NCBI GenBank assembly: GCA_043814985.1
Contig: JBDRJK010000019.1
Coordinates: forward strand, 56,561-120,560
DNA from: Candidatus Aenigmatarchaeota archaeon
Lineage (GTDB): Archaea > Aenigmatarchaeota > Aenigmatarchaeia > Aenigmatarchaeales > Aenigmatarchaeaceae
Length of the DNA: 64,000 nucleotides
Reading direction: 5' to 3'
Part shown: piece by piece, positions 5,045 to 24,178 of the stretch
How the letters are laid out: the number at the start of each line of letters is the position of its first letter
How positions within the stretch are numbered: position 1 is the first letter of the stretch
Program-made: the position numbers and the translations under genes
Notes under the pieces: generated by a model
Told to the model about the DNA's origin: nothing
Database searches by the model: none
Seen by the model: the letters and a program-made list of their open reading frames with translations, nothing else

Positions 5045-5280
5045 TAAAATTATATATTAAAATAATTAAAAACAAAAATAAAGATGGTTATATTCTTTAT
5101 TTGACAAAAAAACTTACTTAATAATCATCATCTTCTTTTTGAACTTCTTCTTTCATTTTCTTTTTCTTTGGCATGGATATCACCCCCTGTAGGCACTATC
5201 TCTGACAGATGGAAGAATTATGGACAACCTCTATTTAAACTTTTAACCGTATTTAAACATGACCTCTCACTTGCCAGTTA

Positions 5281-5847: not shown

Positions 5848-5884
5848 AAAGTATATTCACTTTTGTTGTTTTATAAACCTATAA

Positions 5885-7318: not shown

Positions 7319-7341
7319 ACTATCATCACTATCTTATTATT

Positions 7342-7350
7342 CTTTATAAA
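7342..7350 (+). promoter_or_regulatory. Consensus archaeal TATA box (cTTTATAAA) about 25 nt upstream of ATG 7372
   Basis: Spacing implies a leaderless transcript. Confidence 0.5.
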
Positions 7351-7371
7351 GATTTAATTGCAATAACTTGT

Positions 7372-7656
7372 ATGCCAGTGAGTACAGCACCATACAGGAG
7401 GGCTTATTTACATACGAAAAGCAAGGGAAGAGAGGGCACTGTCAAGTGCGGTTATTGCGGGAGAATGGTTCCCAGATGGAAGACCTTTACAAAATTCAGG
7501 GGTTTTAGGATTTCAGACCCGATTTTGAGAAGACAGGTCCCAAGTTATAGAATACACACGTTCCAGCAGAAGATGTATGTCTGCCCGAGCTGTGCCAGGA
7601 GAAGAAAAATTGTTAAACCAGGCAAAAGCGTCAGGAAAAAACATCTCAAGGTTTAA
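7372..7656 (+). CDS. Zinc-ribbon ribosomal protein, S26e-like (94 aa)
   Basis: KGREGTVKCGYCGRMVPRWK...YVCPSCARRRK pattern resembles S26e (possibly L34e); the track ORF start at 7276 overlaps RtcB and is unlikely. Confidence 0.45.
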   Translation: MPVSTAPYRRAYLHTKSKGREGTVKCGYCGRMVPRWKTFTKFRGFRISDPILRRQVPSYRIHTFQQKMYVCPSCARRRKIVKPGKSVRKKHLKV

Positions 7657-7688
7657 AAGCTTCAATTTCTATATAATAAAGTGATTTT

Positions 7689-8018
7689 ATGAACGTAATT
7701 GAATCAAAGCCAGTGGGAATGCCAGAAGCAAAGGAAATTATGACTAGTCAGGAGAAGGACAAGGAAATGACATACGAGCAGAAGCTGGCAATGGAACATC
7801 TAAAGAAGTTTACCAAACTAAAAGCTGCTGAGGCCAAGAAAATGTTGGAAGAGCTATCAGCAGTTCTGAGAATGTCTGAGGAGACCAAAATCCAAATTAT
7901 AAATCTCTTGCCAAAGAAGCCAGAGGAGCTGAGAATGATATTCACAAGAGAGAACTTCAGCTTGAAGGACGATGAAATCAAGAAAATACTAGAGATAGTT
8001 AAAAAATACCATAAGTGA
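7689..8018 (+). CDS. rpoF: RNA polymerase subunit F (Rpo4)
   Basis: EAKEI...YEQKLAMEHLKKFTKLK...LLPKKPEELRMIFTRE matches RpoF family; followed by the conserved DUF655 partner gene. Confidence 0.7.
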   Translation: MNVIESKPVGMPEAKEIMTSQEKDKEMTYEQKLAMEHLKKFTKLKAAEAKKMLEELSAVLRMSEETKIQIINLLPKKPEELRMIFTRENFSLKDDEIKKILEIVKKYHK

Positions 8019-8584
8019 TGCTTATGCCTTTTCTAAGAGACGAAAATGTGATAGTATTAGATTTCCTTCCAAGGGGCCATGCAGCTGGAAGACAGGAGTC
8101 TTTGGCACAGGTAATAGGCAACAAATACTTCTCATTGTTGGAGGTTGTTGTGAGAAAGGATGTTTCCTTTAAGTCAGGAGACATTGCCTACATAGGCGAA
8201 TCGAAAAGGGACCAGATAGATCACATCAAAAGAAGGATAACCATCAGGGACCTGACAACCTTTGCCAAGTCCGAACTGCCCTTTGTTGTTGAAAAACTGG
8301 TTAAAGAGAACGAGGAGAAGTTTGTCAACTTCTTTAACACTTCTAGACCAATCTCGACCAGATTGAATCAGTTAGAGCTCTTGCCGGGAGTCGGGAAAAA
8401 GCACATGTGGGACATAATCAAGGAGAGGAAGAAGGGAGAGTTCAAGAGCTTCAAGGACCTTTCAGAGAGGATAAAGCTCATGCCAGATCCTGCCAACATA
8501 GTCATCAAGAGAATAATGGAAGAGCTGGAAAATGACAATGTCAGATACAGGCTGTTTGTAGCAGGTCCTGTCAGGAGATATTGA
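8015..8584 (+). CDS. DUF655-family HhH nucleic-acid-binding protein (conserved rpoF neighbour)
   Basis: LELLPGVGKKHMWDIIKER helix-hairpin-helix; 4-nt overlap with rpoF. Confidence 0.55.
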   Translation: MMLMPFLRDENVIVLDFLPRGHAAGRQESLAQVIGNKYFSLLEVVVRKDVSFKSGDIAYIGESKRDQIDHIKRRITIRDLTTFAKSELPFVVEKLVKENEEKFVNFFNTSRPISTRLNQLELLPGVGKKHMWDIIKERKKGEFKSFKDLSERIKLMPDPANIVIKRIMEELENDNVRYRLFVAGPVRRY

Positions 8585-8877
8585 TGGATGTAATGGGAAA
8601 ATTGCAGCAACTTCTTCTAAAAATTCCCAGAGGCAAAGTAACAACTTACAAGGAAATAGCTAGAGCGCTTGGTATCCATTCTAGGGCTGCCGGAAGATTG
8701 CTTGGAAGTAATCCTGACAGCAAGAAATACCCATGTTATAAGGTTGTTTATGCTGATGGAAGATTGGGAGGATACACTAGTTCTACAGGTTTAAAGGAAA
8801 AGGTAAAAAGACTTAAAAAAGATGGGATAGAAGTAAAGAATGGAAGGATTGCCAAAAAGTCGTTCTTTTATTTTTAA
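8581..8877 (+). CDS. MGMT-like DNA-binding domain protein (COG3695-type) with variant PCYKV motif
   Basis: YKEIARALG...PCYKVVYADG resembles the O6-alkylguanine alkyltransferase C-terminal domain (PCHRV) with His replaced by Tyr. Confidence 0.55.
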   Translation: MMDVMGKLQQLLLKIPRGKVTTYKEIARALGIHSRAAGRLLGSNPDSKKYPCYKVVYADGRLGGYTSSTGLKEKVKRLKKDGIEVKNGRIAKKSFFYF

Positions 8878-9165
8878 GCTGTTTTTACTACTGGATGATA
8901 GTTTTATATATCACCTGAGCTTAATTATTATTACGGTTAAGTGATAAAGGTGTATATGTGTTTCAATTTCCAAAAGGTGACTTTGTGTTTAGAAAACTCA
9001 AACCAAAAAGACCCGTTGTGATAAGGAACTGCAATACTGTAAAAGTTTGCTATTATCATAAGGGAACTAAGACATGCTTGGGTCCTTTGTGCTACTGGCT
9101 CAGGATTGGCAGATGTCCTATTCATGATAGGATAATAATCAAAAGAGGCAAGTAATAAGGGTTTT

Positions 9166-10275
9166 TTAAGAAGAAATCAGAATCTTCAATGTTTTGAAAT
9201 CAGCATCAGTCTTTATGGCAGTTGGACAGAAATGAGTTCTTGACACCTTGAAGCCTTTTTTCTCAAGTTTTTTGAATAAATAATCCATTCTAGGTATCTT
9301 TGTTTTAAGGACCTTTGCCAGATAATGTAAATCATAGTAAAAGGCAGACATGTCAGCCTCATCTATTAATAGATTCAGGAGTTTCTCCTCTTGTTTCTCC
9401 AAATTGAAGTCCCTTTTTCTCAAGTCAGCAAGCACCTTCTTGCAGAACTTCCCATCTAGGATGCTTCCCAAGTATAAAGGACCAACTATCTTGAATTTTT
9501 CACCGCAAAAACACTTTTCCTTCAATTCTCCTTGCTCCCTATTGCCGCAGGAGCAGTCCATGACATAACCGAATTCCTTGAGTATGTCTTTCATTTTGCC
9601 CAGATGCTCTATTTTTCCATAAACTCTGAAATAGTGCTTTGTGGAGTGCATTAGTAATGGAACAAAGACCCTCTCTCTTTTTGACAGGGTCAGCATTATG
9701 TTGGTTATCAGTATCCTCATTCCCAGTTCTGGATAGTAATCTGTCTTCAAGGAACGGATTCCGTACTTTCTAAGGCATGTTAGAGGATAGGTTCCACATA
9801 GGGGAGCCTGATCAGTTGCAGTTACACAGAGAAAGCCTCTGTGGTATATTGACCTTGCAGCAGAATCAAGATAAGGTACGGGAGTTCCAAAGGGATCCAA
9901 ATCAATGACATTAAAGATGTTCTGATGAAAAAGAATATTCGCGTCTCCCTTGCTGGCCTTGCATTTCCTTGATAGCTTGTTCTCCTTTATGTTCTTTTTA
10001 ATTAGTTTCACAGCAACAGGGTTCTTGTCATTCAGGAAAACCTTTTCTATTCCCTTGATTTCCTTGGCATACCTTAACCCTCTTATACCAGTTCCTGCTA
10101 GGGCATCGCATATGGTTATCTTGTCCTCGAACTGCTCTTGGAAGGCATGTATTGCTGATATTGAGATGTCCCTCAGCAGCTCTGCCTCTGGGTTATAGAA
10201 TACAGGCACATCGTAAATTCTCCCCTCAGGAACCCAGAACTTTACTTTTCCTTCTTGGACTTTCTTCAGTTTCAT
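9166..10275 (-). CDS. trm1: tRNA (guanine26-N2)-dimethyltransferase Trm1
   Basis: FYNPEAELLRD, DALAGTGIRGLRYA SAM-binding motif, C-terminal Cys cluster; 369 aa. Confidence 0.85.
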   Translation of the reverse strand: MKLKKVQEGKVKFWVPEGRIYDVPVFYNPEAELLRDISISAIHAFQEQFEDKITICDALAGTGIRGLRYAKEIKGIEKVFLNDKNPVAVKLIKKNIKENKLSRKCKASKGDANILFHQNIFNVIDLDPFGTPVPYLDSAARSIYHRGFLCVTATDQAPLCGTYPLTCLRKYGIRSLKTDYYPELGMRILITNIMLTLSKRERVFVPLLMHSTKHYFRVYGKIEHLGKMKDILKEFGYVMDCSCGNREQGELKEKCFCGEKFKIVGPLYLGSILDGKFCKKVLADLRKRDFNLEKQEEKLLNLLIDEADMSAFYYDLHYLAKVLKTKIPRMDYLFKKLEKKGFKVSRTHFCPTAIKTDADFKTLKILISS

Positions 10276-10447
10276 AAAGAGAATTATGCCTTATCACTAT
10301 TAATTACCACTGCCAGTGGTAAAGGCTGTATTTATCATTTTTGGCTAAAGCTTTGAATAGTAATTTCATGAATTGTCGAATGTGCAAAAAAGATTTATAA
10401 GCATTAATTGACTACTAAGAATAAGTTGATTATCGAGGAGCTAAAAA

Positions 10448-11524
10448 ATGCCTGAAATTGACATCAAAAAATTCTTGCTGGAGAAAAAGCCCACTATTGA
10501 TAAAGTGGTTGAGAAGTGGATTCCCAAAAAATTTGACATGAATTTCATGGATTTTGTTTTTGGTAAAACAAGATACCAGTATAATGTTGATGTTGTTAAC
10601 AAGACTATTACCGAGCCCATTTGGGAGTTTTTGGAAAGGGGAGGAAAGAGATGGAGACCATCTTTGTTCCTTCTAGTTGTGGAGGCTTTGGGTGGTGACA
10701 AGGAAAAGGTCTTTGACTTTGTTGTGATACCAGAAATAATTCATAATGGGACTCTTTTTGTTGATGATATTGAGGACAGGAGCGAGTTGAGAAGAGGCAA
10801 GCCATGCATGCATTTGATGTACGGTATGGATGTGGCAATCAACACTGGCAACACTATGTATTATTTGCCTCTTTTGCCTCTGATCAAGCACAGAAAGGAT
10901 TTTGATTCAAACATACTTCTTAATGTTTACGAGACTTATGTCCAGGAAATGATAAACCTGGGTCTTGGGCAGGCCATGGACATAGCTTGGCATAATGGCA
11001 TATGCAATGCGGACAATCTCTCTGAGAAGGAATACTTACAGATGTGCGCTTTCAAGACAGGGACTTTGGCTAGGATGTCCGCCAAGATTGCTGCAATACT
11101 TTCAGGAGCTGATGACAAGCTTGTGGAAAATTTAGGCAATTATGCTGAGACAATCGGTATAGCGTTCCAAATACAGGACGATGTACTGAACTTGGTTGAG
11201 GGAGAGTTCACGGAGAATAAGGGGCTTGGTGAAGATATAACAGAGGGGAAGAGGAGCCTTTTGGTGATAAACACTTTAAACAAGGCAAGTCAAGAGGACA
11301 GGAAAAGACTTCTAGAGATTCTTGGCATGCATACTAATGTTCAGAAACTAAGGAATGAGGCAATATCCATAATCAAGAAATACGGTTCAATTGAGTATGC
11401 AAAGGAGAAGGCAAAAAAAATGATTATGGAGGCTTGGGAAGGCGTTGACAAACTTATTCCAGACTCGGATGCTAAGTTAAAGTTAAAGGCCTTTACTGAT
11501 TACTTGGTTGATAGAAAAATATAA
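10448..11524 (+). CDS. Polyprenyl diphosphate synthase (GGPP synthase-like) with N-terminal extension
   Basis: First DDxxD motif (FVDDIEDRSELRRGKP) and second (QIQDDVLN); SD-like GAGGAG upstream. Confidence 0.8.
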   Translation: MPEIDIKKFLLEKKPTIDKVVEKWIPKKFDMNFMDFVFGKTRYQYNVDVVNKTITEPIWEFLERGGKRWRPSLFLLVVEALGGDKEKVFDFVVIPEIIHNGTLFVDDIEDRSELRRGKPCMHLMYGMDVAINTGNTMYYLPLLPLIKHRKDFDSNILLNVYETYVQEMINLGLGQAMDIAWHNGICNADNLSEKEYLQMCAFKTGTLARMSAKIAAILSGADDKLVENLGNYAETIGIAFQIQDDVLNLVEGEFTENKGLGEDITEGKRSLLVINTLNKASQEDRKRLLEILGMHTNVQKLRNEAISIIKKYGSIEYAKEKAKKMIMEAWEGVDKLIPDSDAKLKLKAFTDYLVDRKI

Positions 11525-11535
11525 GGAGGAATAAT

Positions 11536-11688
11536 ATGGAGAATGACAATCTAAAAATGGTTTTAATAGATGCATCTGATGGACAGTGGGTAACTGTACC
11601 TAAACCAATTTACGAGACAGTAATAGAGGATAAGGGTTTCCTTGAAGGAAGACTTTATCTGTTAAGAAAAGAACATCCTAGTTTATAA
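11536..11688 (+). CDS. Small hypothetical protein (50 aa) with strong SD (AGGAGGA)
   Basis: Hand-translated MENDNLKMVLIDASDGQWVTVPKPIYE...; not in the ORF track (<60 aa). Confidence 0.3.
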   Translation: MENDNLKMVLIDASDGQWVTVPKPIYETVIEDKGFLEGRLYLLRKEHPSL

Positions 11689-11748
11689 TTAGCACCACCA
11701 AGGGTAGTAAATAAAATACATATTCCCTTAAATTGAATACTACATGTT

Positions 11749-12057
11749 ATGTTCCAAAAAATATCAGGAAACGTTTTAACTCCTGAAAAAATCAAAATTT
11801 TATTGAAGCTTAATAATATCATGATAAAGTTTTCCCCCTTCGAGGACCATACAGAGTTCGGCAGAAAGATTGAGGGTGAATTGAAAAAGAGATTCGGTAC
11901 ACATGGTTTGGAGTATGATTCAGAAAGTAACAAGTTTAGAGTCGAGGAAGGGAAAATCAGATGCATAACTCACGACTGTGGGAGCACCTGTTGCAGCGGT
12001 CTAGGAGATATTTTTTATGTTAGTGGAGAAGAACTTCAAGAGATTGCGAAAAACTAA
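11749..12057 (+). CDS. Hypothetical Cys-containing protein overlapping the mvk start
   Basis: ORF track only. Confidence 0.25.
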   Translation: MFQKISGNVLTPEKIKILLKLNNIMIKFSPFEDHTEFGRKIEGELKKRFGTHGLEYDSESNKFRVEEGKIRCITHDCGSTCCSGLGDIFYVSGEELQEIAKN

Positions 12058-13066
12058 GGCTTCTGCTCCAGGCAAGGTTATATTGTTCGGCGAACATGCT
12101 GTTGTCTATGATAAGCTAGGAATTGCCGCTTCTGTTGATTTGAATTGTCTTATTGAGGTTAGTACTAATAACGAGAATAAGGTTACCTATGAGATAAAGA
12201 AAATAGGAATGAAGAAGTCCATGACAAAGGAAGAGCTTTTCAATCTTTATGAAACTGTTGAAAGGCTCAAAAGAGAGGAAAGATTTGACGAAATAAAAGA
12301 ACTTCAAAAAAATGAAAAGCTAAACGCAGCCCTTTTCCTAATTTCTTCACTAATGAAGAAATACGGGTTTGTACCTATTGATGTGGTTGGTGATTCAGGC
12401 GTTACCAAGAACCTAGGTTCCAGTTCCTCAGCCTTTTCCGCGACTGCTATGGCAGTTTCAAAGTTTCTGGGAAAAGATATCTCTAAAGAGGATATTTGTG
12501 ATATGGCTTACCAGGGAGATGTGGTTGCTCATGGTGGCACGCCGTCGGGCATTGACAACTCCATTGTTACTTACGGTGGTTATATCCAATACAGGAAATC
12601 AAAGGGAATAAAACCTCTTGACATTAAGTTCAAGCTTCCTATAATTTTTGTGGACAGCGGTCAACCGTCCAGAACAGGTGAGACTGTTCCTTACATCAGG
12701 GACCAGAGAAATAAGAACAAGGAATTCGTTGACCAAGTTTTGGATAAGCTAGACAAAATCTCTATCCAAGCCTTGGACGCTCTGAAAGAAAATAAATTGG
12801 AATTGATAGGCAAGTTAATGCTGGAATATTATTCGGAATTGAAAAAGCTCAACATATCAACAGAAAAACTGGATGAGATAGTTGAGATCGCTATCAAGAA
12901 CGGAGCATTAGGAGCAAAACCAACAGGAGGATGGGGTGGAGGTTGCTGTCTGGTTCTTGCAAAGGATCAGGAACATGCAGATGAATTGGTAAAGATTTAC
13001 GAAGAGAACGGTTTTAATTCTTTCCAGACCAAAATAGGCGTAGAGGGTGTCAGGGAGATAAAATGA
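12017..13066 (+). CDS. mvk: Mevalonate kinase
   Basis: SAPGKVILFGEHAVVYD and GHMP-kinase motif LGSSSSAFSA; 349 aa. Confidence 0.85.
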   Translation: MLVEKNFKRLRKTKASAPGKVILFGEHAVVYDKLGIAASVDLNCLIEVSTNNENKVTYEIKKIGMKKSMTKEELFNLYETVERLKREERFDEIKELQKNEKLNAALFLISSLMKKYGFVPIDVVGDSGVTKNLGSSSSAFSATAMAVSKFLGKDISKEDICDMAYQGDVVAHGGTPSGIDNSIVTYGGYIQYRKSKGIKPLDIKFKLPIIFVDSGQPSRTGETVPYIRDQRNKNKEFVDQVLDKLDKISIQALDALKENKLELIGKLMLEYYSELKKLNISTEKLDEIVEIAIKNGALGAKPTGGWGGGCCLVLAKDQEHADELVKIYEENGFNSFQTKIGVEGVREIK

Positions 13067-13593
13067 GAATAGCAGTTGCAATTACAGGTGCTTCTGGCAG
13101 TGTTGTTGGTTTGAGATTAATAGAAGAACTAAAGAAGAAAGTTGAAGTTACAACAATAATATCAGATGCAGGTGAGAAAGTACTGAAAGAAGAGACAGGA
13201 ACTAAAATGAAAGCCGACTATGAGGAAGATGATATAGAGTCTCCCTTGGCGAGTAGCTCGAACATCGTAGATGCTTTCATAATATGTCCTTGCTCTGTGA
13301 AGACCCTGTCTGCAGTTGCCAATGGTTATACTAACAACCTTATTATCCGTTTGGCTGATATACAACTGAAGATGAGAAGGAAGTTGATATTGTGCATTAG
13401 GGAGACTCCCTTCAATCTCATGCACATAGAGAATATGAGAAAGGTTACCTTGGCCGGTGGAATCATAATGCCTTTGAACATCGCATATTATTCCAAGCCT
13501 AAAACCTTGGATGACGTTAATGATTTTTTTGTGGGCAAAGCTTTAGATTTAATTGGAATTGAAAACAAATTGTATAAGAGGTGGAAAGAATGA
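13063..13593 (+). CDS. ubiX: UbiX-family flavin prenyltransferase (prFMN synthase)
   Basis: MRIAVAITGASGSVVGLRLIE flavoprotein N-terminus; 176 aa; overlaps mvk stop. Confidence 0.8.
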   Translation: MRIAVAITGASGSVVGLRLIEELKKKVEVTTIISDAGEKVLKEETGTKMKADYEEDDIESPLASSSNIVDAFIICPCSVKTLSAVANGYTNNLIIRLADIQLKMRRKLILCIRETPFNLMHIENMRKVTLAGGIIMPLNIAYYSKPKTLDDVNDFFVGKALDLIGIENKLYKRWKE

Positions 13594-14840
13594 GTTTTAG
13601 AGGATTCATAAAAAAACTTGAAAATAACAATATGATTAAAAAAATCGAAGATGAGATTGATTTGAACTTGGGTCTTACCGGTTTTTTGAAAAATAAAACC
13701 CAGAGTTATGTTTTTGAAAACATAAGAGACTTTCCTAATTTTAAGATAGCCGCAAACCTTGTGACAGACAGAAAACATTTGGGCTTATCCTTTGATTGTA
13801 GTGAACAGGAAGTTGTAAAGAAGGTAGCCGATGCTATTAGAAATCCCGGAAAGTTGAATGAGGTAGACGATGCGCCATTTTTTGAGGTTGAAGCAAAACT
13901 ATCAGACCTACCAATACCTAGATATTTGCCTACAGATGGGGGTCCTTACTTATCGTCTGCTATTGTCTTTTCAAAAGATAAAGAACTTGGAGACAATGTT
14001 TCTTTCCATCGAATGATGGTAAAGGACGGAAGGATAATAATAAGGCTTGTTAAAAGACATACTTGGGAATTCTATGAGAGGTCAAATAGAAATTTGGACA
14101 TAGCGATATGCATAGGTCTTGACCCTGCTATTTTAGAGGCCGCTGCTGTATGCACAGATATAAGTGTATTTGAATTGCCAATAGCAAGCGCAATAATCGG
14201 AAAACCAATTGATGTTGTTAAATGTAGAACATGTGATTTGAAGGTTCCTGCTGAATCTGAGATAGTTATCGAGGCAACGATTACAGAGGAATGGGATGAC
14301 GAGGGGCCCTTCTTGGATATTACACTTACTCCTGACATAGTCAGAAGCCAGCCAGTGGTAAAGGTCAAAAAGATATTCCATAGGAAAAATCCTATATTTC
14401 ATGCTTTGCTTCCAGGCGGCTATGAACATGGAACAGTATGGAAAACGCCAACAGAGTCAGTCATGTTTAATGAAGTGAACAAAGTGTGTGCATGCAAGGA
14501 TGTCTTTCTAAGCTTTGGGGGATGCTCCCGTTTGCATGGGATGGTTCAGATAAAAAAGAAAAATAAGGAAGACGGACTAAGTGCTATAGAAGCTGCGTTC
14601 AAGGCGCATCCGAGCATGAAGCATGTGTTCATAGTTGATGAGGATATTGATATCTATGACATTAATGCAGTTGAATGGGCCCTTGCAACAAGATTCCAGG
14701 CAAAAACAGACTTGGTTATAAAACATGACTTAAAGGGTTCTACTCTGGATCCATCTTCTAGCAAGACGGGGAAGACATCCAAACTAGGGTTTGACTGTAC
14801 AATAAAAGGTGACCCAAAGGAATTCAGAAAAGTATTTTGA
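13581..14840 (+). CDS. UbiD-family decarboxylase (candidate trans-anhydromevalonate 5-phosphate decarboxylase)
   Basis: 419 aa UbiD-like; operon context between UbiX and AcnX genes. Confidence 0.7.
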   Translation: MERMSFRGFIKKLENNNMIKKIEDEIDLNLGLTGFLKNKTQSYVFENIRDFPNFKIAANLVTDRKHLGLSFDCSEQEVVKKVADAIRNPGKLNEVDDAPFFEVEAKLSDLPIPRYLPTDGGPYLSSAIVFSKDKELGDNVSFHRMMVKDGRIIIRLVKRHTWEFYERSNRNLDIAICIGLDPAILEAAAVCTDISVFELPIASAIIGKPIDVVKCRTCDLKVPAESEIVIEATITEEWDDEGPFLDITLTPDIVRSQPVVKVKKIFHRKNPIFHALLPGGYEHGTVWKTPTESVMFNEVNKVCACKDVFLSFGGCSRLHGMVQIKKKNKEDGLSAIEAAFKAHPSMKHVFIVDEDIDIYDINAVEWALATRFQAKTDLVIKHDLKGSTLDPSSSKTGKTSKLGFDCTIKGDPKEFRKVF

Positions 14841-14870
14841 TGAACTCCATATACAAAAATCGTCAATAAA

Positions 14871-15194
14871 ATGATTGTAATGATTGCTGGTAGGGGAAAA
14901 TATAAAGTTTGGCTAGAAAAGAAAAAGGTTGGCAAGGAGACAGTTTTATTTTTGTTTGGTGGAGAAAAACCGCATGTAGGCTGTGTTATAATAGTTGAAC
15001 CAAAGAGGAAAACTAAATTGATAAAATTTGATAACCATAAAGACTATATTGTTGCAAGACCTATTGCTGAAAAGTTTTGTAAAAAAACAAAGAGAAGAGT
15101 TGTTTGTGTTGCAGGAATCCATGTGGACAATGCGACAAAAGAAGAGATTAAGATTTTAGTTGACAACTGCAAAAAAATTGAGGAAAGGATATAG
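14871..15194 (+). CDS. Uncharacterised 107-aa protein embedded in the mevalonate operon
   Basis: ORF track; abuts the AcnX large subunit start (15195); no recognisable family. Confidence 0.4.
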   Translation: MIVMIAGRGKYKVWLEKKKVGKETVLFLFGGEKPHVGCVIIVEPKRKTKLIKFDNHKDYIVARPIAEKFCKKTKRRVVCVAGIHVDNATKEEIKILVDNCKKIEERI

Positions 15195-16391
15195 ATGGAA
15201 CTGACAAAAGAAGAGAGGGAAATGTTTGTTGGTGAAAGGGGAGAAGGCATACAAAAGGCAATGGAAATAATTGTTGCTTTAGGAAAGATATACAGTGCTG
15301 AAAGGCTCATAAGGGTTACAAGCGTTCAGGTTGCTGGTGTTAGCTACAAGAACCTGGGCGATGCTGGCATTGAATTTCTAGAGGATTGGGCAAGAAAGGG
15401 AGCAAAGATTTCTGTCAGAACTACATTAAATCCTGCAGGCATGGACTTGGAGAACTGGAAGAGATTAGGTTTCAAGGAAGAGTTTGCAAAAAAGCAGCTC
15501 AAAGTAATAGAGGCTTTCAAGAAGATAGGCATATCTCCTGTCTGCACATGCACACCCTACCTGATAGGCAACCTGCCAAAGTTCGGGGAGCATATTGCAT
15601 GGAGCGAGTCGTCTGCTGTTTCCTTTGCCAATTCTGTAATAGGAGCTAGGACCAACAGGGAAGGAGGTCCCTCTGCACTGGCAGCTGCAATAACAGGAAG
15701 GACAGCCTGCTATGGTTTTCATTTGAAGGAGAACCGCAAGGCAGACTTTGTCTTTGATGTGAAGTGCAAGGTTGATGGCTTCTCAGACTTAGGAGCTTTG
15801 GGGAACATTATTGGAAAATCTGTGAAAAACAAGGTACCATACATAATAGGTGTGAAAGAAGAGAATCAGGACAACCTGAAAGTTTTGGGAGCCTCAATGG
15901 CTGCTAGCGGTGCTGTAGCATTATACCATATTGATAATGTTACTCCTGAAGCTAAGATAAGGGACATGAGAAAGGAAGAATTCCAGACCATAGTCATTGA
16001 ATCCTTGGAAGAGGGCTACAAGTCTTTGAACTCTAACGAGAATGAGATAGACTTTGTTAGTATAGGATGCCCTCATGCTTCAGTTGATGAGATTAAGAAG
16101 ATATCAGAACTTGTCATAGGAAAGAAACTCAAGGCAGAACTGTGGGTCACAACCTCAAAACATGTCAAAAAGCTGGCAGACAAATATGTTAGGACAATAG
16201 AGCAAAGCGGCGGCAAGGTCCTAAGTGATACGTGTATGATTGTTGCACCAGTTGAGGATTTTGGTTTCAAGAATCTTGCCACAAACTCTGGCAAGGCTGC
16301 GTTCTATGCGCCTTCTTATTCTAAACTCAATGTCAGGTTCGGCTCGCTTGAACAATGTATTAATGCAGCATTAACAGGTAGATGGGAATGA
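15195..16391 (+). CDS. Aconitase X (AcnX) large subunit, phosphomevalonate dehydratase
   Basis: 398 aa; AcnX-type catalytic domain; coupled to the small subunit downstream. Confidence 0.75.
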   Translation: MELTKEEREMFVGERGEGIQKAMEIIVALGKIYSAERLIRVTSVQVAGVSYKNLGDAGIEFLEDWARKGAKISVRTTLNPAGMDLENWKRLGFKEEFAKKQLKVIEAFKKIGISPVCTCTPYLIGNLPKFGEHIAWSESSAVSFANSVIGARTNREGGPSALAAAITGRTACYGFHLKENRKADFVFDVKCKVDGFSDLGALGNIIGKSVKNKVPYIIGVKEENQDNLKVLGASMAASGAVALYHIDNVTPEAKIRDMRKEEFQTIVIESLEEGYKSLNSNENEIDFVSIGCPHASVDEIKKISELVIGKKLKAELWVTTSKHVKKLADKYVRTIEQSGGKVLSDTCMIVAPVEDFGFKNLATNSGKAAFYAPSYSKLNVRFGSLEQCINAALTGRWE

Positions 16392-16765
16392 AGGGAAGAA
16401 TAATAAAATTTGGAGATGTGGAAGGAGAGGCTATTGTCTCAAAAGAACCAATAAGCTTTTTTGGCGGCGTTGACCCGGATACTGGAATAGTTATTGAGAA
16501 AGGCCATTCTCTGGAAGGCAAAAACATCAAAGGAAAAATACTGGTCTTTCCCACAGGAAAGGGTTCCACTGTCGGTTCCTATGTCTTGTACAGGTTAAAG
16601 AAGAGCAATGTCGCTCCCTTGGGTATAATAAACGAGGAGTGCGAGCCCATAGTTGCTGTCGGTGCAATAATATCTGACATACCATGTGTTGACAAGATTG
16701 ACATAGGTAAGATAAATGATGGTGATATGGTCGTTATTGAGGGAGAGAAGGTTACCATCAAATGA
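16382..16765 (+). CDS. AcnX small subunit (DUF126 swivel domain) of phosphomevalonate dehydratase
   Basis: GEAIVSKEPISFFGGVDPDTGIV...LVFPTGKGSTVGSYVLYRL typical of PMDh small subunit. Confidence 0.75.
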   Translation: MGMKGRIIKFGDVEGEAIVSKEPISFFGGVDPDTGIVIEKGHSLEGKNIKGKILVFPTGKGSTVGSYVLYRLKKSNVAPLGIINEECEPIVAVGAIISDIPCVDKIDIGKINDGDMVVIEGEKVTIK

Positions 16766-16811
16766 CGATGCCATTAAAAAGGTATTAAAAGATTTGGACA
16801 TAAAGTGTATT

Positions 16812-17612
16812 ATGACGGACAACCTAATTTTGATCAAGCTCGGCGGCAGTCTTATAACAGACAAGAACACGCCCTTTACACCAAGACACGATGTTATCAA
16901 CAGACTGGCAAAGGAGATACACGAGGCCAGGCAGGAAAAGAAATTAAAGATTATTGTAGGACATGGTGGCGGTTCTTTCCCTCACAAGCCGGCAAAGGAC
17001 TATAGGACTAATGAAGGCATAGTGAACGGAGACAGTTTCAAAGGAATCTCTCTTGTCCAGGACGCGGCTTCTAAGCTTAATCGAATAATTGTTGATGCTT
17101 TGATAGATGCTGGCGAGAACGCTATTTCTGTGCAACCTTCTGCTTCCCTTATATCAGAGAACGGCAGGATAAAGGAGTGGTATCTTAAGCCAGTAACTGA
17201 GATGCTAAAAAATGATTTGTTGCCAGTACCTTATGGTGATGTTTCAATGGACACAAAAAAGGGCTGCTGCATAATATCCACTGAGGAGATTCTTAATTAC
17301 ATAGCAAAACATTCTTCTTTCAAGAAAATAATCCTTGCTGGTATAACCAATGGTGTGTATGAGAAAGACCCTACAATATACAAGGATGCCAAACTGATTC
17401 CTGAGATAAACTCGAAGAACTTCGAGGAAATCAAAAAATACCTTGGTGGCAGTACTGGGATTGATGTCACTGGAGGCATGCTCCACAGGGTAACTAGGAT
17501 ATTTGAGCTGTCAAAGTTCGGTACTGAATCTATTGTGATGAGCGGGGAAATAGAGGGCAACCTGAAAAGGGCTTTGCTTGGAGAAAGAGTAGGAACGCTT
17601 ATGAGATTGTGA
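16812..17612 (+). CDS. Isopentenyl phosphate kinase (amino-acid-kinase family)
   Basis: LILIKLGGSLITDK and GHGGGSF motifs; ATG at 16812 preferred (track start 16716 overlaps AcnX-S). Confidence 0.8.
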   Translation: MTDNLILIKLGGSLITDKNTPFTPRHDVINRLAKEIHEARQEKKLKIIVGHGGGSFPHKPAKDYRTNEGIVNGDSFKGISLVQDAASKLNRIIVDALIDAGENAISVQPSASLISENGRIKEWYLKPVTEMLKNDLLPVPYGDVSMDTKKGCCIISTEEILNYIAKHSSFKKIILAGITNGVYEKDPTIYKDAKLIPEINSKNFEEIKKYLGGSTGIDVTGGMLHRVTRIFELSKFGTESIVMSGEIEGNLKRALLGERVGTLMRL

Positions 17613-18139
17613 TTATGGAAGAGATAATTTCTGTTGTAGATGAGAAGGATATTTTACTGAGAGGAGAAGACAGGAAAAAAGTCCATGCTTCCACCTTTTG
17701 GCACAGAGGAATACATGTTTTTCTTTTCAATAAAAAAGGTGAGCTGTTAGTTCAATTGCGATCTCCAGACAAGGACAAATATCCCAATACTTTCGATTGT
17801 TCTGTCTCAGGTCATGTTGATTATGGAAATGGATATCTTGAGACCGCTAATAGGGAAATGAATGAGGAAGTTGGGCTGGATGGTTTAGATTTGGAACTGC
17901 TTGTGCATTTCAGGATGGTTTATGGTGATAGGGATTATATGATAAGCAAGCTTTTCAGGTGCGAATATGGTGGTGAGATAAAACCGAATGAAGAAGTTTC
18001 AGAAATAAAATTCTTGAAGATGGATGAACTGAAAAAAGCAATAATTGAGAAGCCTGATATGTTTACTCCTTGGTTTGTGGAAATGTTAAAATGGCATTTT
18101 AAGATGGAAAATAAGTTGCATATTCTTAAGGTTTATTGA
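17609..18139 (+). CDS. Nudix-fold protein resembling type 1 IPP isomerase (IDI-1)
   Basis: HRGIHVFLFNKKGELLVQLRSPDKDKYPNTFDCSVSGH..REMNEEVGL and C-terminal TPWFVEML align with IDI-1 conserved blocks. Confidence 0.5.
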   Translation: MIMEEIISVVDEKDILLRGEDRKKVHASTFWHRGIHVFLFNKKGELLVQLRSPDKDKYPNTFDCSVSGHVDYGNGYLETANREMNEEVGLDGLDLELLVHFRMVYGDRDYMISKLFRCEYGGEIKPNEEVSEIKFLKMDELKKAIIEKPDMFTPWFVEMLKWHFKMENKLHILKVY

Positions 18140-18146
18140 GAATTTT

Positions 18147-19187
18147 CTAAAGCTTTCTTTGATCAACCCAGTCCTTGACTTTTCCATCCAAAATGTATTT
18201 TGTATTTTTCAATTCTTCTATGTTCTTAGAGCCAGTCAAAAGCATTGTTGTCTTCAGCTCCTTTTCCAGTTTGTCAATATATTCTTCCACACCCTGTTTT
18301 CCTTTGGTTTTCAGAATCCTCAAGAAGGGTAAAGCTATGCCGCACATCTCCGCTCCAAGTGCAATTGATTTGGCAATGTCAACACCTGACCTAATCCCGC
18401 CCGTAGCAATTAGAGGCAGCCCTACTTTGGCTTCTATAATCGAAACAGGAGTCGGGATTCCCCAATTCTTGAAATTCTGGAACTCCTTGCCAGATATCAA
18501 GCCGTCAATAACAATCCAGTTAGTTCCCCCAAAACCTCCCACATCTATTGCCTTGACACCAGCTTCCTTAAGTTTCAAAGCAACATCTCTTGATATGCCA
18601 AAACCTACCTCCTTGCCAATAACAGGGTATTTCAAATCCTTGCATAAGTCCTTCAGAAAACATAGGCATTCACTGAAATTGGAGTCTCCGTTTTTCTGGA
18701 ATATCTCTTGGGAGGGGTTTATGTGAACGCAAAGGGCATTTGCTCCAACATATTTCAAGGCTTCCTCGATTTTATCAATGCTGAATTTCTTCAATTGATA
18801 TATGCCTACATTGCCGAAAAGCAGAACATTAGGAGCAACATCTCTAACATAGTAAGTATCCTTCAATTTAGGGTCTTCTATCATGGCTCTCTGGGATCCC
18901 AAAGAAAATCCAATACCTTTCTTCTCTGCTATTTCTGCTAGGTCCTTGTTTATTTTAGTTGCCTCTTCTGTCCCACCTGTCATTGATGCTATTGTCAGGG
19001 GTAATCTGAGTTTTGTTCCAAGAAACTCCGTGGTAGTGTCTATTTTTGCCAAATCCAATTCAGGCAAAGAATTATGAACTAGGTTAACATCCTCAAAACA
19101 TGCCTTATTGCTTTCAACATTCTCCTCTATGCATATCTTAAGATGGTCCTTTTTTCTTCTCTCCGTTGTCATAGTAATAGAATACAA
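18147..19187 (-). CDS. fni: Type 2 (FMN-dependent) isopentenyl-diphosphate isomerase
   Basis: N-terminal TERRKKDHL, ASMTGGT, GGFGGTNW motifs; 346 aa. Confidence 0.85.
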   Translation of the reverse strand: MYSITMTTERRKKDHLKICIEENVESNKACFEDVNLVHNSLPELDLAKIDTTTEFLGTKLRLPLTIASMTGGTEEATKINKDLAEIAEKKGIGFSLGSQRAMIEDPKLKDTYYVRDVAPNVLLFGNVGIYQLKKFSIDKIEEALKYVGANALCVHINPSQEIFQKNGDSNFSECLCFLKDLCKDLKYPVIGKEVGFGISRDVALKLKEAGVKAIDVGGFGGTNWIVIDGLISGKEFQNFKNWGIPTPVSIIEAKVGLPLIATGGIRSGVDIAKSIALGAEMCGIALPFLRILKTKGKQGVEEYIDKLEKELKTTMLLTGSKNIEELKNTKYILDGKVKDWVDQRKL

Positions 19188-23085: not shown

Positions 23086-23667
23086 ATGGCATTTAAAATT
23101 GTAGTAAGCGAACCAAAAAGCAGAAAGGCTTGGCAGATAGAAAAAGAAGCGCCTTTGCTGGTTGGGAAGAAGATTGGGGAAAATTTCGACGGTTCTTTGA
23201 TAGGCTTGTCCGGTTTCAAGTTGCAAGTTACTGGCGGTAGTGACAAGGACGGCTTTCCAATGAGACCGGATTTGGACGGGTCGCAAAGGAAAAAGGCTTT
23301 GCTGACAAAGGGCATCGGTTTCAAGGGAAGGAAAAAGATAAAGAAGAAAATCTTCAAGGTCAAGGGCCTTAGAAAGAGGAAGTTCATAAGAGGCAACATA
23401 GTTTCTGACGATATAATGCAGATAAACTGCAAGATTGTGGAAGGAGAAGGTGACATTCCAAAGATATTGGGAATACAGCCAAAGGTAAAAGAGGGTGAGG
23501 AAAAAGCAGCAGAACAGCCTAAAGAGGAAAAGCCACAAGAGAAACCAAAAGAGGCTCCCAAGGAAGAAGCAAAACCTGTAGAGAAGAAAGAGGAACCCAA
23601 GAAGGAAGAGCCCAAACCAGAACCAAATAAAGAAGAAAGCAAGCCTGAAGAGAAGAAGGGTGAGTAA
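23086..23667 (+). CDS. rps6e: Ribosomal protein S6e with about 60-aa K/E/P-rich C-terminal extension
   Basis: MAFKIVVSEP...GFPMRPDLDGSQRKKALL matches S6e; SD GGGGGTGA upstream. Confidence 0.8.
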   Translation: MAFKIVVSEPKSRKAWQIEKEAPLLVGKKIGENFDGSLIGLSGFKLQVTGGSDKDGFPMRPDLDGSQRKKALLTKGIGFKGRKKIKKKIFKVKGLRKRKFIRGNIVSDDIMQINCKIVEGEGDIPKILGIQPKVKEGEEKAAEQPKEEKPQEKPKEAPKEEAKPVEKKEEPKKEEPKPEPNKEESKPEEKKGE

Positions 23668-24178
23668 ATTCAACAGGGAAATCGAGACCAAGTTCAGAGT
23701 GGATGAGAAACTCTCCTCCAAGCTAAAGAGTCTAAACCTTGTTCCACATGAAGAGATAGATGAATATTTCTTTACAAAGGAAAATGTTACTGGAAGCACA
23801 TATCTCAGGTTCAGAAAGAAAAAGGGAAAGGTGTTTCTTAATTTAAAGAACGTGATAATCGGTGGGACTGATGTTGACATCTATGAGTCAGAGGAAATTA
23901 TGACCGAATTGACAGCAGAACAGTATGAAAAATTAAGAAAAATATTTGAAATACTATTTCCCATAAAATTACAGGTAAGAAAAATAAGAAAGACTGGAAA
24001 ATACGGGCAATGTGAAATATGCCATGATTCTGTTGATGACTTGGGCGAATTTTTTGAAATAGAAGGCAGCAGAGAAAATATAAAGAAAGTCTGCGAAGAA
24101 TTAGATATTGATAATAGCTTGAGAGACAGAGAAAAGGGTTATGTTGAAATGACTTTAAAGAAAATGGGATTGAAATGA
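23660..24178 (+). CDS. CYTH-domain (CyaB/thiamine-triphosphatase-like) protein
   Basis: N-terminal EIETKFRV motif characteristic of CYTH. Confidence 0.55.
   Translation: MSKFNREIETKFRVDEKLSSKLKSLNLVPHEEIDEYFFTKENVTGSTYLRFRKKKGKVFLNLKNVIIGGTDVDIYESEEIMTELTAEQYEKLRKIFEILFPIKLQVRKIRKTGKYGQCEICHDSVDDLGEFFEIEGSRENIKKVCEELDIDNSLRDREKGYVEMTLKKMGLK

What the first reader, a model, noticed from the sequence alone, without database searches (positions are those of the whole stretch)
17609..19187. IDI-1-like Nudix protein convergent with IDI-2: two IPP isomerase types side by side
The 176-aa Nudix-fold ORF aligns over conserved IDI-1 blocks (HRGIHVFLFN..GELLVQLRS..K..YPNTFDCSVSGH, REMNEEVGL, C-terminal TPWFVEML), including the position of the catalytic Cys. 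The neighbouring minus-strand gene is a clear FMN-dependent IDI-2. Most archaea carry only IDI-2, so carrying both types (or a neofunctionalised IDI-1-like Nudix) at the end of the pathway operon is unusual.
Basis: partly seen in the sequence, partly recalled or inferred. Interest (0 to 1): 0.5.

Follow-up and report, generated by a model that had tools for sequence, protein, structure and literature searches.

The report
Isomerase-like Nudix hydrolase in mevalonate operon
The gene next to the type-2 IPP isomerase is not a second isomerase: it is an isomerase-like Nudix enzyme that lacks the isomerase's catalytic residues, keeps a working hydrolase motif, and most likely removes one phosphate from the C5 isoprenoid building blocks at the end of an archaeal mevalonate operon.

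Summary
The ORF is real. It is 174-176 aa, in a Ca. Aenigmatarchaeota (DPANN) MAG, and it is homologous to IDI-1. Its neighbour is a bona fide IDI-2. It fails the IDI-1 membership tests. The Nudix box is the hydrolase form REMNEEVG, not the IDI-1 form RRxxYE. Both IDI-1 equivalog scores are below cutoff. The closest solved structure is E. coli YfcD.

The gene ends an archaeal mevalonate operon: GGPPS-MVK-UbiX-UbiD-AcnX-IPK-Nudix. IPK-Nudix-IDI2 order recurs in most related contigs. The same clade also sits beside a true IDI-1 in another Aenigmatarchaeon, stays in place in a relative that uses the classical pathway, and has distant relatives fused to IDI-1 in bacterial mevalonate clusters. It is therefore a distinct partner of the isomerase step, not a duplicate of it.

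Best reading: an IPP/DMAPP diphosphatase producing IP and DMAP. Here it plausibly feeds UbiX, prFMN and the UbiD-type decarboxylase, or balances IP against IPP together with IPK. No substrate was tested. I rate it a new member of a known kind, of moderate interest.

The parts
17615..18139 (+). IDI-1-like Nudix hydrolase gene. The mechanical ORF starts at GTG 17609 and overlaps the IPK stop codon; the probable start is ATG 17615, giving 174 aa.
   Evidence: Pfam NUDIX 64 bits. P0001 is 100% identical, from Ca. Aenigmatarchaeota. AF2 model pLDDT 96. Best fold match is YfcD 2fkb, TM 0.83/0.90.
17810..17878 (+). Nudix box, residues G68-L90: GHVDYGNGYLETANREMNEEVGL. The R82-E83-x-x-E86-E87-x-G-L part is canonical. 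The GX5E glutamate is Asn74 in this protein but Glu in 30 of 36 clade members.
   Evidence: The IDI-1 equivalents are RRCRYELG (PMC5389931).
17798..17809 (+). Codons C64-S65-V66-S67. Ser67 occupies the position of the IDI-1 catalytic Cys67.
   Evidence: Alignments. Clade counts: S67 in 35/36, C64 in 36/36.
17933..17941 (+). Codons D109-Y110-M111, aligned to IDI-1 E114-N115-E116. The catalytic Glu116 is replaced by Met here (His in 30/36 of the clade). Asp109 is invariant.
18147..19187 (-). Type-2 (FMN-dependent) IPP isomerase, convergent with the Nudix gene.
   Evidence: TIGR02151, 394 bits against a cutoff of 281. Pfam FMN_dh.
16716..17612 (+). Isopentenyl phosphate kinase. The probable start is ATG 16812. 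The stop codon TGA is at 17610-17612.
   Evidence: NF040647 IPPK_Arch, 210 bits against a cutoff of 120, aligned from residue 38..
13063..13593 (+). UbiX-family flavin prenyltransferase (prFMN synthase). It uses DMAP.
   Evidence: TIGR00421, 198 bits against 109; NF004685, 199 against 188. Pfam Flavoprotein.
13581..14840 (+). UbiD-family decarboxylase, inferred from operon context to be the anhydromevalonate phosphate decarboxylase.
   Evidence: TIGR00148, 331 bits against 245. Pfam UbiD N, core and C domains. Pathway scheme from PMC11816158.
15195..16765 (+). AcnX large subunit (15195-16391) and small subunit (16382-16765), inferred to be phosphomevalonate dehydratase.
   Evidence: Pfam AcnX 524 bits and AcnX_swivel 124 bits.
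12017..13066 (+). Mevalonate kinase.
   Evidence: TIGR00549, 202 bits against 163.
10448..11524 (+). Short-chain (GGPP-type) prenyl diphosphate synthase at the head of the cluster.
   Evidence: Pfam polyprenyl_synt 226 bits. Closest NCBIfam models are IdsA and GGPP synthase, both below cutoff.

Best explanation
The gene encodes a metal-dependent Nudix phosphohydrolase that descends from the same branch of the Nudix fold as IDI-1, YfcD and DR0079. It is not an isomerase. It keeps the IDI-1-type residues that hold the diphosphate (R22, R51, K55) and the C-terminal Trp (W155, equivalent to IDI-1 W161) together with the neighbouring F101 position that line the IDI-1 substrate pocket. It also has the hydrolase Nudix box (R82-E83-x-x-E86-E87) for Mg2+/Mn2+.

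Inferred chemistry: it binds the C5 prenyl diphosphates made at the end of the operon and removes the terminal phosphate (DMAPP to DMAP + Pi; IPP to IP + Pi).

Inferred role in this operon. IPK makes IPP and IDI-2 makes DMAPP. The Nudix enzyme converts some DMAPP to DMAP, the prenyl donor UbiX needs to make prFMN. prFMN is the cofactor of the UbiD-type decarboxylase encoded in the same operon. Acting against IPK, the enzyme would also set the IP/IPP ratio.

Shown here: homology, loss of the isomerase catalytic residues, an intact and constrained hydrolase motif, and conserved gene neighbourhood. Inferred: the substrate and the physiological role.
For: (1) It is not an isomerase. C67 is Ser and E116 is Met/His, and both IDI-1 equivalog cutoffs are failed.

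(2) The hydrolase machinery is under selection. R82, E83, E86 and E87 are present in 36/36 clade members. Across 146 family members, positions 68 and 83 show a perfect carboxylate swap: (G,E) in 108 and (E,G/C/A) in 30. The remaining 8 have a small residue (Ala or Ser) at 68, and 7 of those keep Glu83. No member carries a Glu at both positions.

(3) R22, R51, K55 and W155 are conserved and align with IDI-1 K21, R51, K55 and W161.

(4) Fold: YfcD TM 0.83-0.90, IDI-1 TM 0.76.

(5) Synteny. IPK lies immediately upstream in the window, L119, L003/L056, L005, L008, L047, L049, L050, L052 and L084. IDI-2 lies immediately downstream in most of these. A Nanoarchaeota contig has Nudix-IPK.

(6) The protein is distinct from whichever isomerase is present, yet tied to it. 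It coexists with a true IDI-1 in L120. Relatives are fused C-terminally to a true IDI-1 inside bacterial mevalonate clusters L116 and L117.

(7) prFMN link. UbiX and UbiD are in the same operon. Independently, an Archaeoglobi contig has the order UbiD-type phenylphosphate carboxylase beta, then Nudix (41% identity, 4-nt overlap), then HAD, with UbiX 4 kb away.

(8) Precedent. E. coli NudJ and other Nudix enzymes convert DMAPP to DMAP for prFMN (PMC12359138). In plants, IPK and Nudix hydrolases set the IP/DMAP to IPP/DMAPP balance (PMC8248349). From memory only, not verifiable in the paper library: M. mazei MM_2582, an IPP/DMAPP-preferring Nudix hydrolase proposed to supply DMAP (Ishibashi et al. 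2022).
Against: No substrate was tested. The nearest characterised relatives within this subgroup do not act on isoprenoids: DR0079 prefers cytosine nucleotides (PMC5389931), and YfcD has no assigned substrate in that PDB entry.

The prFMN role cannot be the universal reason for the gene. A syntenic relative (L048, 64% identity) has the classical module (diphosphomevalonate decarboxylase plus an extra GHMP kinase) in place of UbiX-UbiD-AcnX-IPK and still keeps Nudix-IDI2. The bacterial fusion clusters contain no UbiX or UbiD. About 30 Chloroflexota homologs and one contig labelled Bathyarchaeia have no mevalonate or UbiX/UbiD genes within 10 kb.

This particular protein has Asn instead of Glu at the GX5E position of the Nudix box.

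The clade keeps most of the IDI-1 His/acid metal site (H26, H32, H/Q69, D109, H/M111) and an invariant Cys64. A hydrolase has no obvious use for these.
Confidence: 0.5

Rival explanations
1. It is a second, type-1 IPP isomerase working alongside IDI-2. It might use a relocated Cys (C64) and His111 or Asp109 in place of Cys67 and Glu116.
For: There is real homology to IDI-1 over the full length. H26, H32, H69, D109 and W155 match IDI-1 H25, H32, H69, E114 and W161, and Cys64 is invariant in the clade. IMG pipelines annotate many members as IDI type 1. From memory: human IDI2 also has Ser at the Cys position and is reported active.
Against: Ser67 is found in 35/36 clade members, and position 111 is His or Met, never Glu. 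The protein has a hydrolase Nudix box where IDI-1 has RRxxYE. It scores below both IDI-1 equivalog cutoffs. H69 is Gln in 29/36 close homologs. The clade coexists with a true IDI-1 in L120, and relatives are fused to a true IDI-1 in L116/L117, which argues against redundancy. It is always accompanied by another isomerase.
Confidence: 0.05
2. The chemistry is the same (IPP/DMAPP to IP/DMAP), but the role is a regulatory valve or futile cycle with IPK that sets the IP/IPP ratio or drains toxic excess C5 diphosphates, as in plants. It would not be a DMAP supply for prFMN.
For: IPK-Nudix is the most persistent gene pair. The Nudix is retained in the classical-pathway relative L048 and in bacterial clusters without UbiX or UbiD. 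The plant IPK/Nudix system is a precedent (PMC8248349). HAD-family phosphatases recur next to these genes.
Against: It does not explain the order UbiD(phenylphosphate carboxylase beta)-Nudix-HAD with a nearby UbiX in Archaeoglobi. L048 and the fusion clusters show no IPK within the cluster. A futile ATP-consuming cycle is an odd thing for reduced DPANN genomes to retain. The three HAD types are not orthologous.
Confidence: 0.2
3. It is a nucleotide-directed or cofactor-directed Nudix hydrolase (for example CDP/CTP as for DR0079, FAD to FMN for IDI-2 and UbiX, or isoprenyl-AMP adducts), and its operon position reflects co-regulation only.
For: DR0079 and YfcD are equally close relatives. Both IDI-2 and UbiX need FMN. 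Many family members (Chloroflexota, Bathyarchaeia) lie outside isoprenoid contexts. A second, MutT-like small Nudix is adjacent in L001, L045 and L048.
Against: Synteny with IPK and the isomerase is conserved across 60-73% identity and across phyla, and there are domain fusions to IDI-1. The IDI-1-like diphosphate-binding residues and the Trp at the IDI-1 W161 position are retained.
Confidence: 0.15
4. It is a proofreading or other prenyl-diphosphate enzyme. It might hydrolyse a by-product of the isomerase reaction (for example a hydrated C5 diphosphate) or longer products such as GGPP made by the synthase at the head of the cluster.
For: It is associated with either type of isomerase, including by fusion. 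GGPPS heads the same cluster. The remodelled IDI-1-like metal site is conserved.
Against: This is purely inferential and has no precedent in the papers searched. The family is the length of IDI-1 and keeps the Trp that aligns with IDI-1 W161, which suggests an IDI-1-sized C5 pocket rather than one for long chains.
Confidence: 0.1

Closest known systems
E. coli YfcD (PDB 2FKB; NCBIfam NF011922)
   Same: It is the best sequence hit in the PDB (E=1.3e-13 with the single sequence, 6e-20 with the profile) and the best fold match (TM 0.83/0.90, rmsd 1.8 A, 28% identity). It has the same length, the same N-terminal extension and a canonical Nudix box.
   Different: The query scores 68.7 bits against a cutoff of 152, so it is not an ortholog. 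YfcD lacks the equivalent of IDI-1 His25, which the query clade keeps. YfcD is not known to lie in an isoprenoid operon, and the PDB entry assigns no substrate.
Type-1 IPP isomerase (E. coli Idi, PDB 1NFS and others; human IDI1; TIGR02150/NF002995)
   Same: Same Nudix sub-fold (TM about 0.76-0.78). Conserved equivalents of H25, H32, K21, R51, K55, E87 and W161. Same pathway context.
   Different: Cys67 is Ser and Glu116 is Met/His. His69 is Gln in most of the clade. The Nudix box is REMNEE where IDI-1 has RRCRYE. Scores are below both equivalog cutoffs. The clade coexists with, or has relatives fused to, genuine IDI-1.
Prenyl-diphosphate-hydrolysing Nudix enzymes: E. coli NudJ, NudF, NudB and NudI; plant NUDX1/3; M. 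mazei MM_2582 (this last from memory; possibly the basis of NCBIfam NF041653 'Nud_hyd_Meth')
   Same: The proposed chemistry (DMAPP/IPP to DMAP/IP) and the proposed roles: DMAP for UbiX and prFMN (PMC12359138) and IP/IPP balance with IPK (PMC8248349). NF041653 matches the query over its full length at E=6e-17.
   Different: The query scores 62 bits against a cutoff of 300, so it is not an ortholog. No Methanosarcina protein appears in the top 120 hits of a family profile search. The E. coli and plant enzymes belong to other Nudix subfamilies and are not operon-linked to the pathway. Here the gene is embedded between IPK and the isomerase.
Deinococcus radiodurans DR0079 (PDB 1Q27/2O5F)
   Same: It belongs to the same IDI-like Nudix subgroup (E=5.8e-9; TM 0.78-0.84).
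   Different: It prefers cytosine (deoxy)nucleoside di- and triphosphates and has Asn in place of the last Gly of the Nudix box (PMC5389931). It has no isoprenoid context.

Membership tests
Type-1 IPP isomerase (IDI-1) | Catalytic Cys (E. coli Cys67) in the NxxC(G/S)H motif | tested here: not met
   The aligned residue is Ser67. The query's Cys64 lies 3 residues upstream. Ser is found in 35/36 clade members.
Type-1 IPP isomerase (IDI-1) | Catalytic Glu (E. coli Glu116) in the E-x-E motif | tested here: not met
   E114 aligns to D109 and E116 aligns to M111. In the clade, position 111 is His in 30 and Met in 6, never Glu.
Type-1 IPP isomerase (IDI-1) | Metal site formed by H25, H32, H69, E114 and E116 | tested here: inconclusive
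   H26, H32 and D109 are invariant. H69 is present in the query but is Gln in 29/36 close homologs. The fifth ligand is replaced. Metal binding cannot be tested with these tools.
Type-1 IPP isomerase (IDI-1) | Curated equivalog score (TIGR02150 at least 105.8 bits; NF002995 at least 127 bits) | tested here: not met
   The query scores 71.4 and 69.5 bits. True IDI-1 controls pass: L120 N1 scores 138 and 175, and the N-terminal halves of the fusion proteins score 114-170.
Type-1 IPP isomerase (IDI-1) | Degenerate Nudix box (RRxxYE or RRxxAE) instead of RExxEE | tested here: not met
   The query has R82-E83-M-N-E86-E87. IDI box forms are taken from PMC5389931.
Type-1 IPP isomerase (IDI-1) | IPP-DMAPP isomerase activity | not testable with these tools
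   This needs an enzyme assay or complementation.
Nudix hydrolase superfamily (PF00293) | Nudix fold and Pfam score above the gathering threshold | tested here: met
   64.2 bits against 21.1. AF2 model pLDDT 96 with an alpha/beta/alpha Nudix fold and top PDB hits that are all Nudix proteins.
Nudix hydrolase superfamily (PF00293) | Nudix box GX5EX7REUXEEXGU with the metal-binding glutamates | tested here: met
   G68 and R82-E83-M84-x-E86-E87-x-G89-L90 are all present. The only deviation is Asn74 at the GX5E position (Glu in 30/36 of the clade). The 68/83 carboxylate swap across the family indicates functional constraint.
YfcD (NF011922) | Equivalog score of at least 152 bits | tested here: not met
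   68.7 bits.
NCBIfam NF041653 'Nud_hyd_Meth' (presumed to be the Methanosarcina IPP/DMAPP Nudix hydrolase) | Equivalog score of at least 300 bits | tested here: not met
   61.9 bits over the full length. All clade members tested score 48-77 bits. What the model was built from could not be verified.
C5 prenyl-diphosphate phosphohydrolase (functional class) | Hydrolysis of IPP or DMAPP to IP or DMAP + Pi | not testable with these tools
   Inferred from residues and gene neighbourhood only.
Type-2 IPP isomerase (the neighbouring gene, 18147-19187) | TIGR02151 equivalog score of at least 281 bits and an FMN_dh TIM-barrel | tested here: met
   394.1 bits. Pfam FMN_dh 107 bits.

The most novel reading that the evidence does not exclude
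The clade is an uncharacterised enzyme family that acts as a dedicated partner of the IPP-isomerase step, whichever isomerase type is used. It lies next to IDI-2 or IDI-1 in DPANN archaea, and relatives are fused to IDI-1 in small-genome bacterial mevalonate clusters. It keeps a remodelled IDI-1 His/Asp metal site and an invariant Cys64. Its real job would be something not yet described, such as proofreading an isomerase by-product, or an obligatory DMAPP-to-DMAP branch that solves the unresolved question of where archaeal DMAP for prFMN comes from.
Probability: 0.2. Interest if true: 0.65.

Novelty: new member of a known kind. Interest (0 to 1): 0.42.

Why it matters
The archaeal mevalonate pathway depends on a prFMN-requiring UbiD-type decarboxylase. 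prFMN synthesis needs DMAP, and the source of DMAP in archaea is poorly established. A Nudix hydrolase placed between IPK and the isomerase, in the same operon as UbiX and UbiD, is a clean and directly testable candidate for that step, or for IP/IPP homeostasis.

The result also has an annotation consequence. IMG-type pipelines label many members of this family 'IPP isomerase type 1', which would wrongly suggest two isomerases, or an isomerase in genomes that lack one.

The pattern of association is a useful comparative-genomics lead for isoprenoid biochemistry in DPANN and other reduced genomes. The clade occurs with IDI-2, with IDI-1, and with distant relatives fused to IDI-1, and it is retained when the pathway module is swapped.

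Tried and rejected
1. Searching the paper library for the M. mazei Nudix study and for any link between Nudix and the archaeal pathway ('MM_2582', Nudix + anhydromevalonate, Nudix + UbiX + prFMN + DMAP) found nothing. Hayakawa 2018 is not held. The MM_2582 precedent therefore rests on memory only.

2. Looking for Rosetta-stone fusions to UbiX, UbiD or IPK among the 150 best family representatives found none. The fusions present are to RsmA, HAD, PlsY, GDPD and IDI-1.

3. A genome scan with the broad alignment A3 failed because it had no sufficiently conserved stretch. It was repeated with A4.

4. I tested whether the HAD phosphatases next to the Nudix in Aenigmatarchaeota, Archaeoglobi and Chloroflexota are orthologous. 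They are not, so I give the recurring HAD little weight.

5. I looked in the window for a true IDI-1, a small MutT-like Nudix, or an L003-type HAD or CYTH. None was found by tblastn. Pfam does find a CYTH gene at 23660-24178.

6. A profile search intended to pull in Methanosarcina homologs returned none in the top 120.

7. 'Generic housekeeping Nudix' was considered and down-weighted because of the conserved synteny and the fusions.

8. 'DMAP for prFMN' as the sole role was down-weighted after L048 and the fusion clusters were found to lack UbiX and UbiD.
Full report
**Observation**

The window carries an ORF at 17609-18139 (+) of 176 aa. The mechanical GTG start overlaps the TGA stop of the upstream gene. 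An ATG at 17615, 2 nt after that stop, gives the 174-aa protein found identically in an NCBI Ca. Aenigmatarchaeota MAG (P0001), and all homologs begin there. The quoted motifs are present.

The protein is a Nudix-domain protein (Pfam, 64 bits). Its best curated-model hits are the two IDI-1 equivalogs, YfcD, and a 'Nud_hyd_Meth' Nudix hydrolase model. All four score 62-71 bits and all are far below their cutoffs.

The minus-strand neighbour at 18147-19187 is a genuine IDI-2 (394 bits against a cutoff of 281). The observation therefore stands, with one exception: the claim that the catalytic Cys position is conserved.

**Is it an IDI-1?**

Three independent alignments agree: pairwise HMMER to Salmonella Idi, MAFFT with E. 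coli Idi, and a 14-sequence family profile against PDB chains. They map the key residues as follows.

| IDI-1 residue (E. coli) | Query residue | Pattern in relatives |
|---|---|---|
| Cys67 ('NSVCGH') | Ser67 ('CSVSGH') | Ser in 35/36 close relatives; the query's Cys64 is three residues upstream |
| Glu116 | Met111 | His in 30/36, Met in 6/36, never Glu |
| Glu114 | Asp109 | invariant |
| His25, His32 | His26, His32 | retained |
| His69 | His69 | Gln in 29/36 of the close clade |
| Nudix box RRCRYELG | REMNEEVG | hydrolase form |

IDI box forms are from PMC5389931.

An AlphaFold2 model (pLDDT 96) superposes best on E. coli YfcD (TM 0.83/0.90). E. coli IDI-1 comes next (TM about 0.76), followed by human IDI2 and DR0079.

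A positive control from the same phylum sharpens the contrast. In contig L120 the gene directly after IPK has the motifs NTCCSHP and FEHEF and passes both IDI-1 cutoffs (138 and 175 bits). The query's ortholog (66% identical to the query) lies 1.6 kb further on, is only 26% identical to that IDI-1, and fails the cutoffs.

**Is it a working enzyme?**

Yes, by conservation. In the close clade (36 sequences) the following residues are invariant: R22, H26, H32, R33, R51, K55, C64, R82, E83, E86, E87, D109 and E129. W155 is present in 35/36.

Across 146 single-domain family members, positions 68 and 83 show a perfect swap. In 108 members position 68 is Gly and position 83 is Glu. In 30 members position 68 is Glu and position 83 is Gly, Cys or Ala. 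The remaining 8 have Ala or Ser at position 68, and 7 of those keep Glu83. No member carries a Glu at both positions. A carboxylate is thus needed at that spot next to the Nudix helix, which indicates selection on metal-dependent catalysis.

R22, R51 and K55 align with the IDI-1 diphosphate-binding residues K21, R51 and K55. W155 aligns with IDI-1 W161. The functional assignment of those IDI-1 residues comes from established knowledge of the E. coli enzyme.

One blemish in this particular protein is Asn74 in place of the GX5E glutamate. A small subgroup that also has His69 instead of Gln shares this feature.

**Context**

The gene closes an operon with overlapping or abutting genes. The order is GGPPS (10448-11524), a small ORF, mevalonate kinase, UbiX flavin prenyltransferase, a UbiD-family decarboxylase, a small PAC_bac-like ORF, AcnX large and small subunits, IPK, and the Nudix gene. 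[quoted passage not shown]

The nearest relative (L119) has neighbouring genes that are mostly about 86-94% identical to those in the window, a Nudix that is 72-73% identical, and a UbiD that is only 44% identical. It has the same gene order, plus a HAD gene before IPK and a co-directional IDI-2.

Among contigs whose Nudix is at least 55% identical to the query, the pattern is as follows.
- IPK lies within 0-530 bp upstream in L119, L003/L056/L004, L005/L006, L008, L047, L049, L050, L052 and L084.
- IDI-2 lies within 25-470 bp downstream in L119, L003/L056, L005, L008, L047 and L048.
- A Nanoarchaeota contig (L009) has Nudix-IPK with IDI-2 about 5 kb away.

**What the exceptions show**

1. L048 is syntenic with the window (DUF655, TRM1, GGPPS ... 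Nudix, IDI-2). In place of UbiX-UbiD-AcnX-IPK it carries a diphosphomevalonate decarboxylase (287 bits against 171) and a second GHMP kinase, which is a classical-type module. It still keeps the Nudix, together with a small MutT-like Nudix.

2. L120 has GGPPS, a methyltransferase, IPK, a true IDI-1, a B12-radical SAM gene and then the Nudix, with no IDI-2.

3. Among 150 family representatives, three proteins are fusions of an N-terminal domain that passes the IDI-1 cutoffs with a C-terminal domain of this hydrolase-type family that does not. Two of these lie inside bacterial-looking mevalonate clusters: HMGR, HMGS, thiolase, the fusion, GHMP kinase(s), an MVD-like gene and UPP synthase. Neither cluster contains UbiX or UbiD.

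4. An Archaeoglobi contig (L017, identical to L073) has a UbiD-family phenylphosphate carboxylase beta subunit (571 bits against 469). It is followed, with a 4-nt overlap, by a 41%-identical Nudix and then a HAD gene, with UbiX 4 kb away.

5. About 30 Anaerolineales/Chloroflexota homologs (35-45% identity) and one contig labelled Bathyarchaeia lie outside any mevalonate or UbiX/UbiD context. In Chloroflexota a HAD phosphatase is the usual upstream neighbour. The HADs of the three contexts are not orthologous.

**Interpretation**

The protein is a distinct, non-redundant partner of the IPP/DMAPP node. It accompanies either type of isomerase and is sometimes fused to one.

The most economical chemistry is removal of the terminal phosphate from DMAPP and IPP. 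This fits an IDI-1-like binding site combined with a hydrolase metal box.

For the role in this operon I favour DMAP supply to the co-encoded UbiX, which makes prFMN for the co-encoded UbiD-type decarboxylase. E. coli Nudix enzymes do this for UbiD (PMC12359138), and the Archaeoglobi UbiD-Nudix pair supports it independently.

L048 and the fusion clusters show that this cannot be the only selective reason for the gene. An IP/IPP (DMAP/DMAPP) balancing role together with IPK, as in plants (PMC8248349), explains the persistent IPK-Nudix pairing and is the main rival.

Nucleotide or flavin substrates remain possible, since DR0079 and YfcD are equally close relatives. So does a proofreading role.

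Residual isomerase activity is unlikely but not formally excluded, given the retained His/Asp site and the invariant Cys64.

**Comparison with known systems**

The protein works like the prenyl-diphosphate-hydrolysing Nudix enzymes: E. coli NudJ, NudF and NudB, plant NUDX1/3 and, from memory, M. mazei MM_2582. It is not a member of any curated equivalog family tested, namely IDI-1, YfcD and Nud_hyd_Meth. Structurally it belongs to the IDI-like Nudix subgroup.

Searches of the held papers that combined Nudix with the archaeal pathway (anhydromevalonate) or with UbiX, prFMN and DMAP returned nothing. Automated IMG names often call these proteins 'IPP isomerase type 1', whereas NCBI calls them 'NUDIX domain-containing'.

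**Verdict**

- Novelty: a new member of a known kind, namely an uncharacterised clade of IDI-like Nudix hydrolases, operon-embedded in DPANN mevalonate clusters.
- Interest is moderate (0.42). The finding does not overturn anything, but it offers a directly testable candidate for the DMAP/prFMN supply step and a clear annotation correction.

Noticed in passing
window 14871-15194 (+) and 13581-14840 (+): A 107-aa ORF matching Pfam PF21758 ('bacterial proteasome assembling chaperone-like', 98 bits) sits between UbiD and AcnX inside the operon. It is absent from all related clusters. The adjacent UbiD is only 44% identical to that of the closest relative (L119), whereas most neighbouring genes are 86-94% identical. 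This suggests that a UbiD + small-ORF cassette was replaced.
   Followed up: partly
L048 6959-12026, compared with window 12017-19187: Within the same syntenic frame (DUF655, TRM1, GGPPS ... Nudix, IDI-2), a related archaeon carries a classical-type module (MVK, diphosphomevalonate decarboxylase, second GHMP kinase) instead of UbiX-UbiD-AcnX-IPK. Two mevalonate pathway variants therefore occupy the same locus in one lineage.
   Followed up: partly
L120 6863-7384 and 9001-9519: An Aenigmatarchaeota MAG encodes a genuine IDI-1 (NTCCSHP, FEHEF; 138 and 175 bits) directly after IPK, as well as the query-type Nudix. A B12-binding radical SAM gene lies between them, and there is no MVK, UbiD, AcnX or IDI-2 in the cluster.
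   Followed up: yes
P0061, P0065, P0097; loci L116 8001-9047 and L117 82-1137: These are natural fusions of a true IDI-1 domain to a hydrolase-type IDI-like Nudix domain. Two of them (P0061 in L116, P0097 in L117) were located, and both lie inside bacterial-looking mevalonate clusters flanked by T4SS-pilin genes, with UPP synthase in both and SpoIID in L116.
   Followed up: yes
family alignment, query residues 68 and 83 (window 17810-17812 and 17855-17857): There is a perfect either/or swap of a carboxylate between position 68 ('SGH' versus 'SEH') and the first Glu of the Nudix box ('RE' versus 'RG/RC/RA'). Among 146 members, 108 are (G,E) and 30 are (E,G/C/A), and none carries a Glu at both positions. 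Within the close clade, His69 goes with loss of the GX5E glutamate.
   Followed up: partly
window 23660-24178 (+); L003 5904-6437; L052 9477-10007: CYTH (triphosphate tunnel) genes and HAD phosphatase genes recur inside or near these mevalonate operons. In L052 a CYTH-like ORF sits between IPK and the Nudix. In L003, L005, L052 and L119 a HAD gene precedes IPK. The window has a CYTH gene 5.5 kb downstream and no HAD. Their role is unknown.
   Followed up: partly
window 18147-19187 (-): IDI-2 is inverted in this genome relative to all related contigs, where it follows the Nudix gene on the same strand. The 'convergent' arrangement is therefore a local rearrangement, leaving only 7 nt between the two stop codons.
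   Followed up: yes
L017 (= L073) 4117-16714: An Archaeoglobi contig carries what looks like an anaerobic phenol-carboxylation cluster: a PEP-utilising enzyme, phenylphosphate carboxylase beta, a Nudix, a HAD, an AMP-ligase and UbiX. The Nudix is translationally coupled to the UbiD-family subunit.
   Followed up: partly
P0043, P0045, P0055, P0048 and others: Many family representatives are tandem duplications or triplications of the IDI-like Nudix domain (320-530 aa). Others are fused to RsmA, HAD, PlsY or GDPD domains.
   Followed up: no
L001 7560-7958, L045 1887-2285, L048 10544-10933: A small (129-132 aa) MutT-like Nudix gene is adjacent to the query-type Nudix in three otherwise different contexts, one of them next to a UbiA prenyltransferase. 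The window has no such gene.
   Followed up: partly
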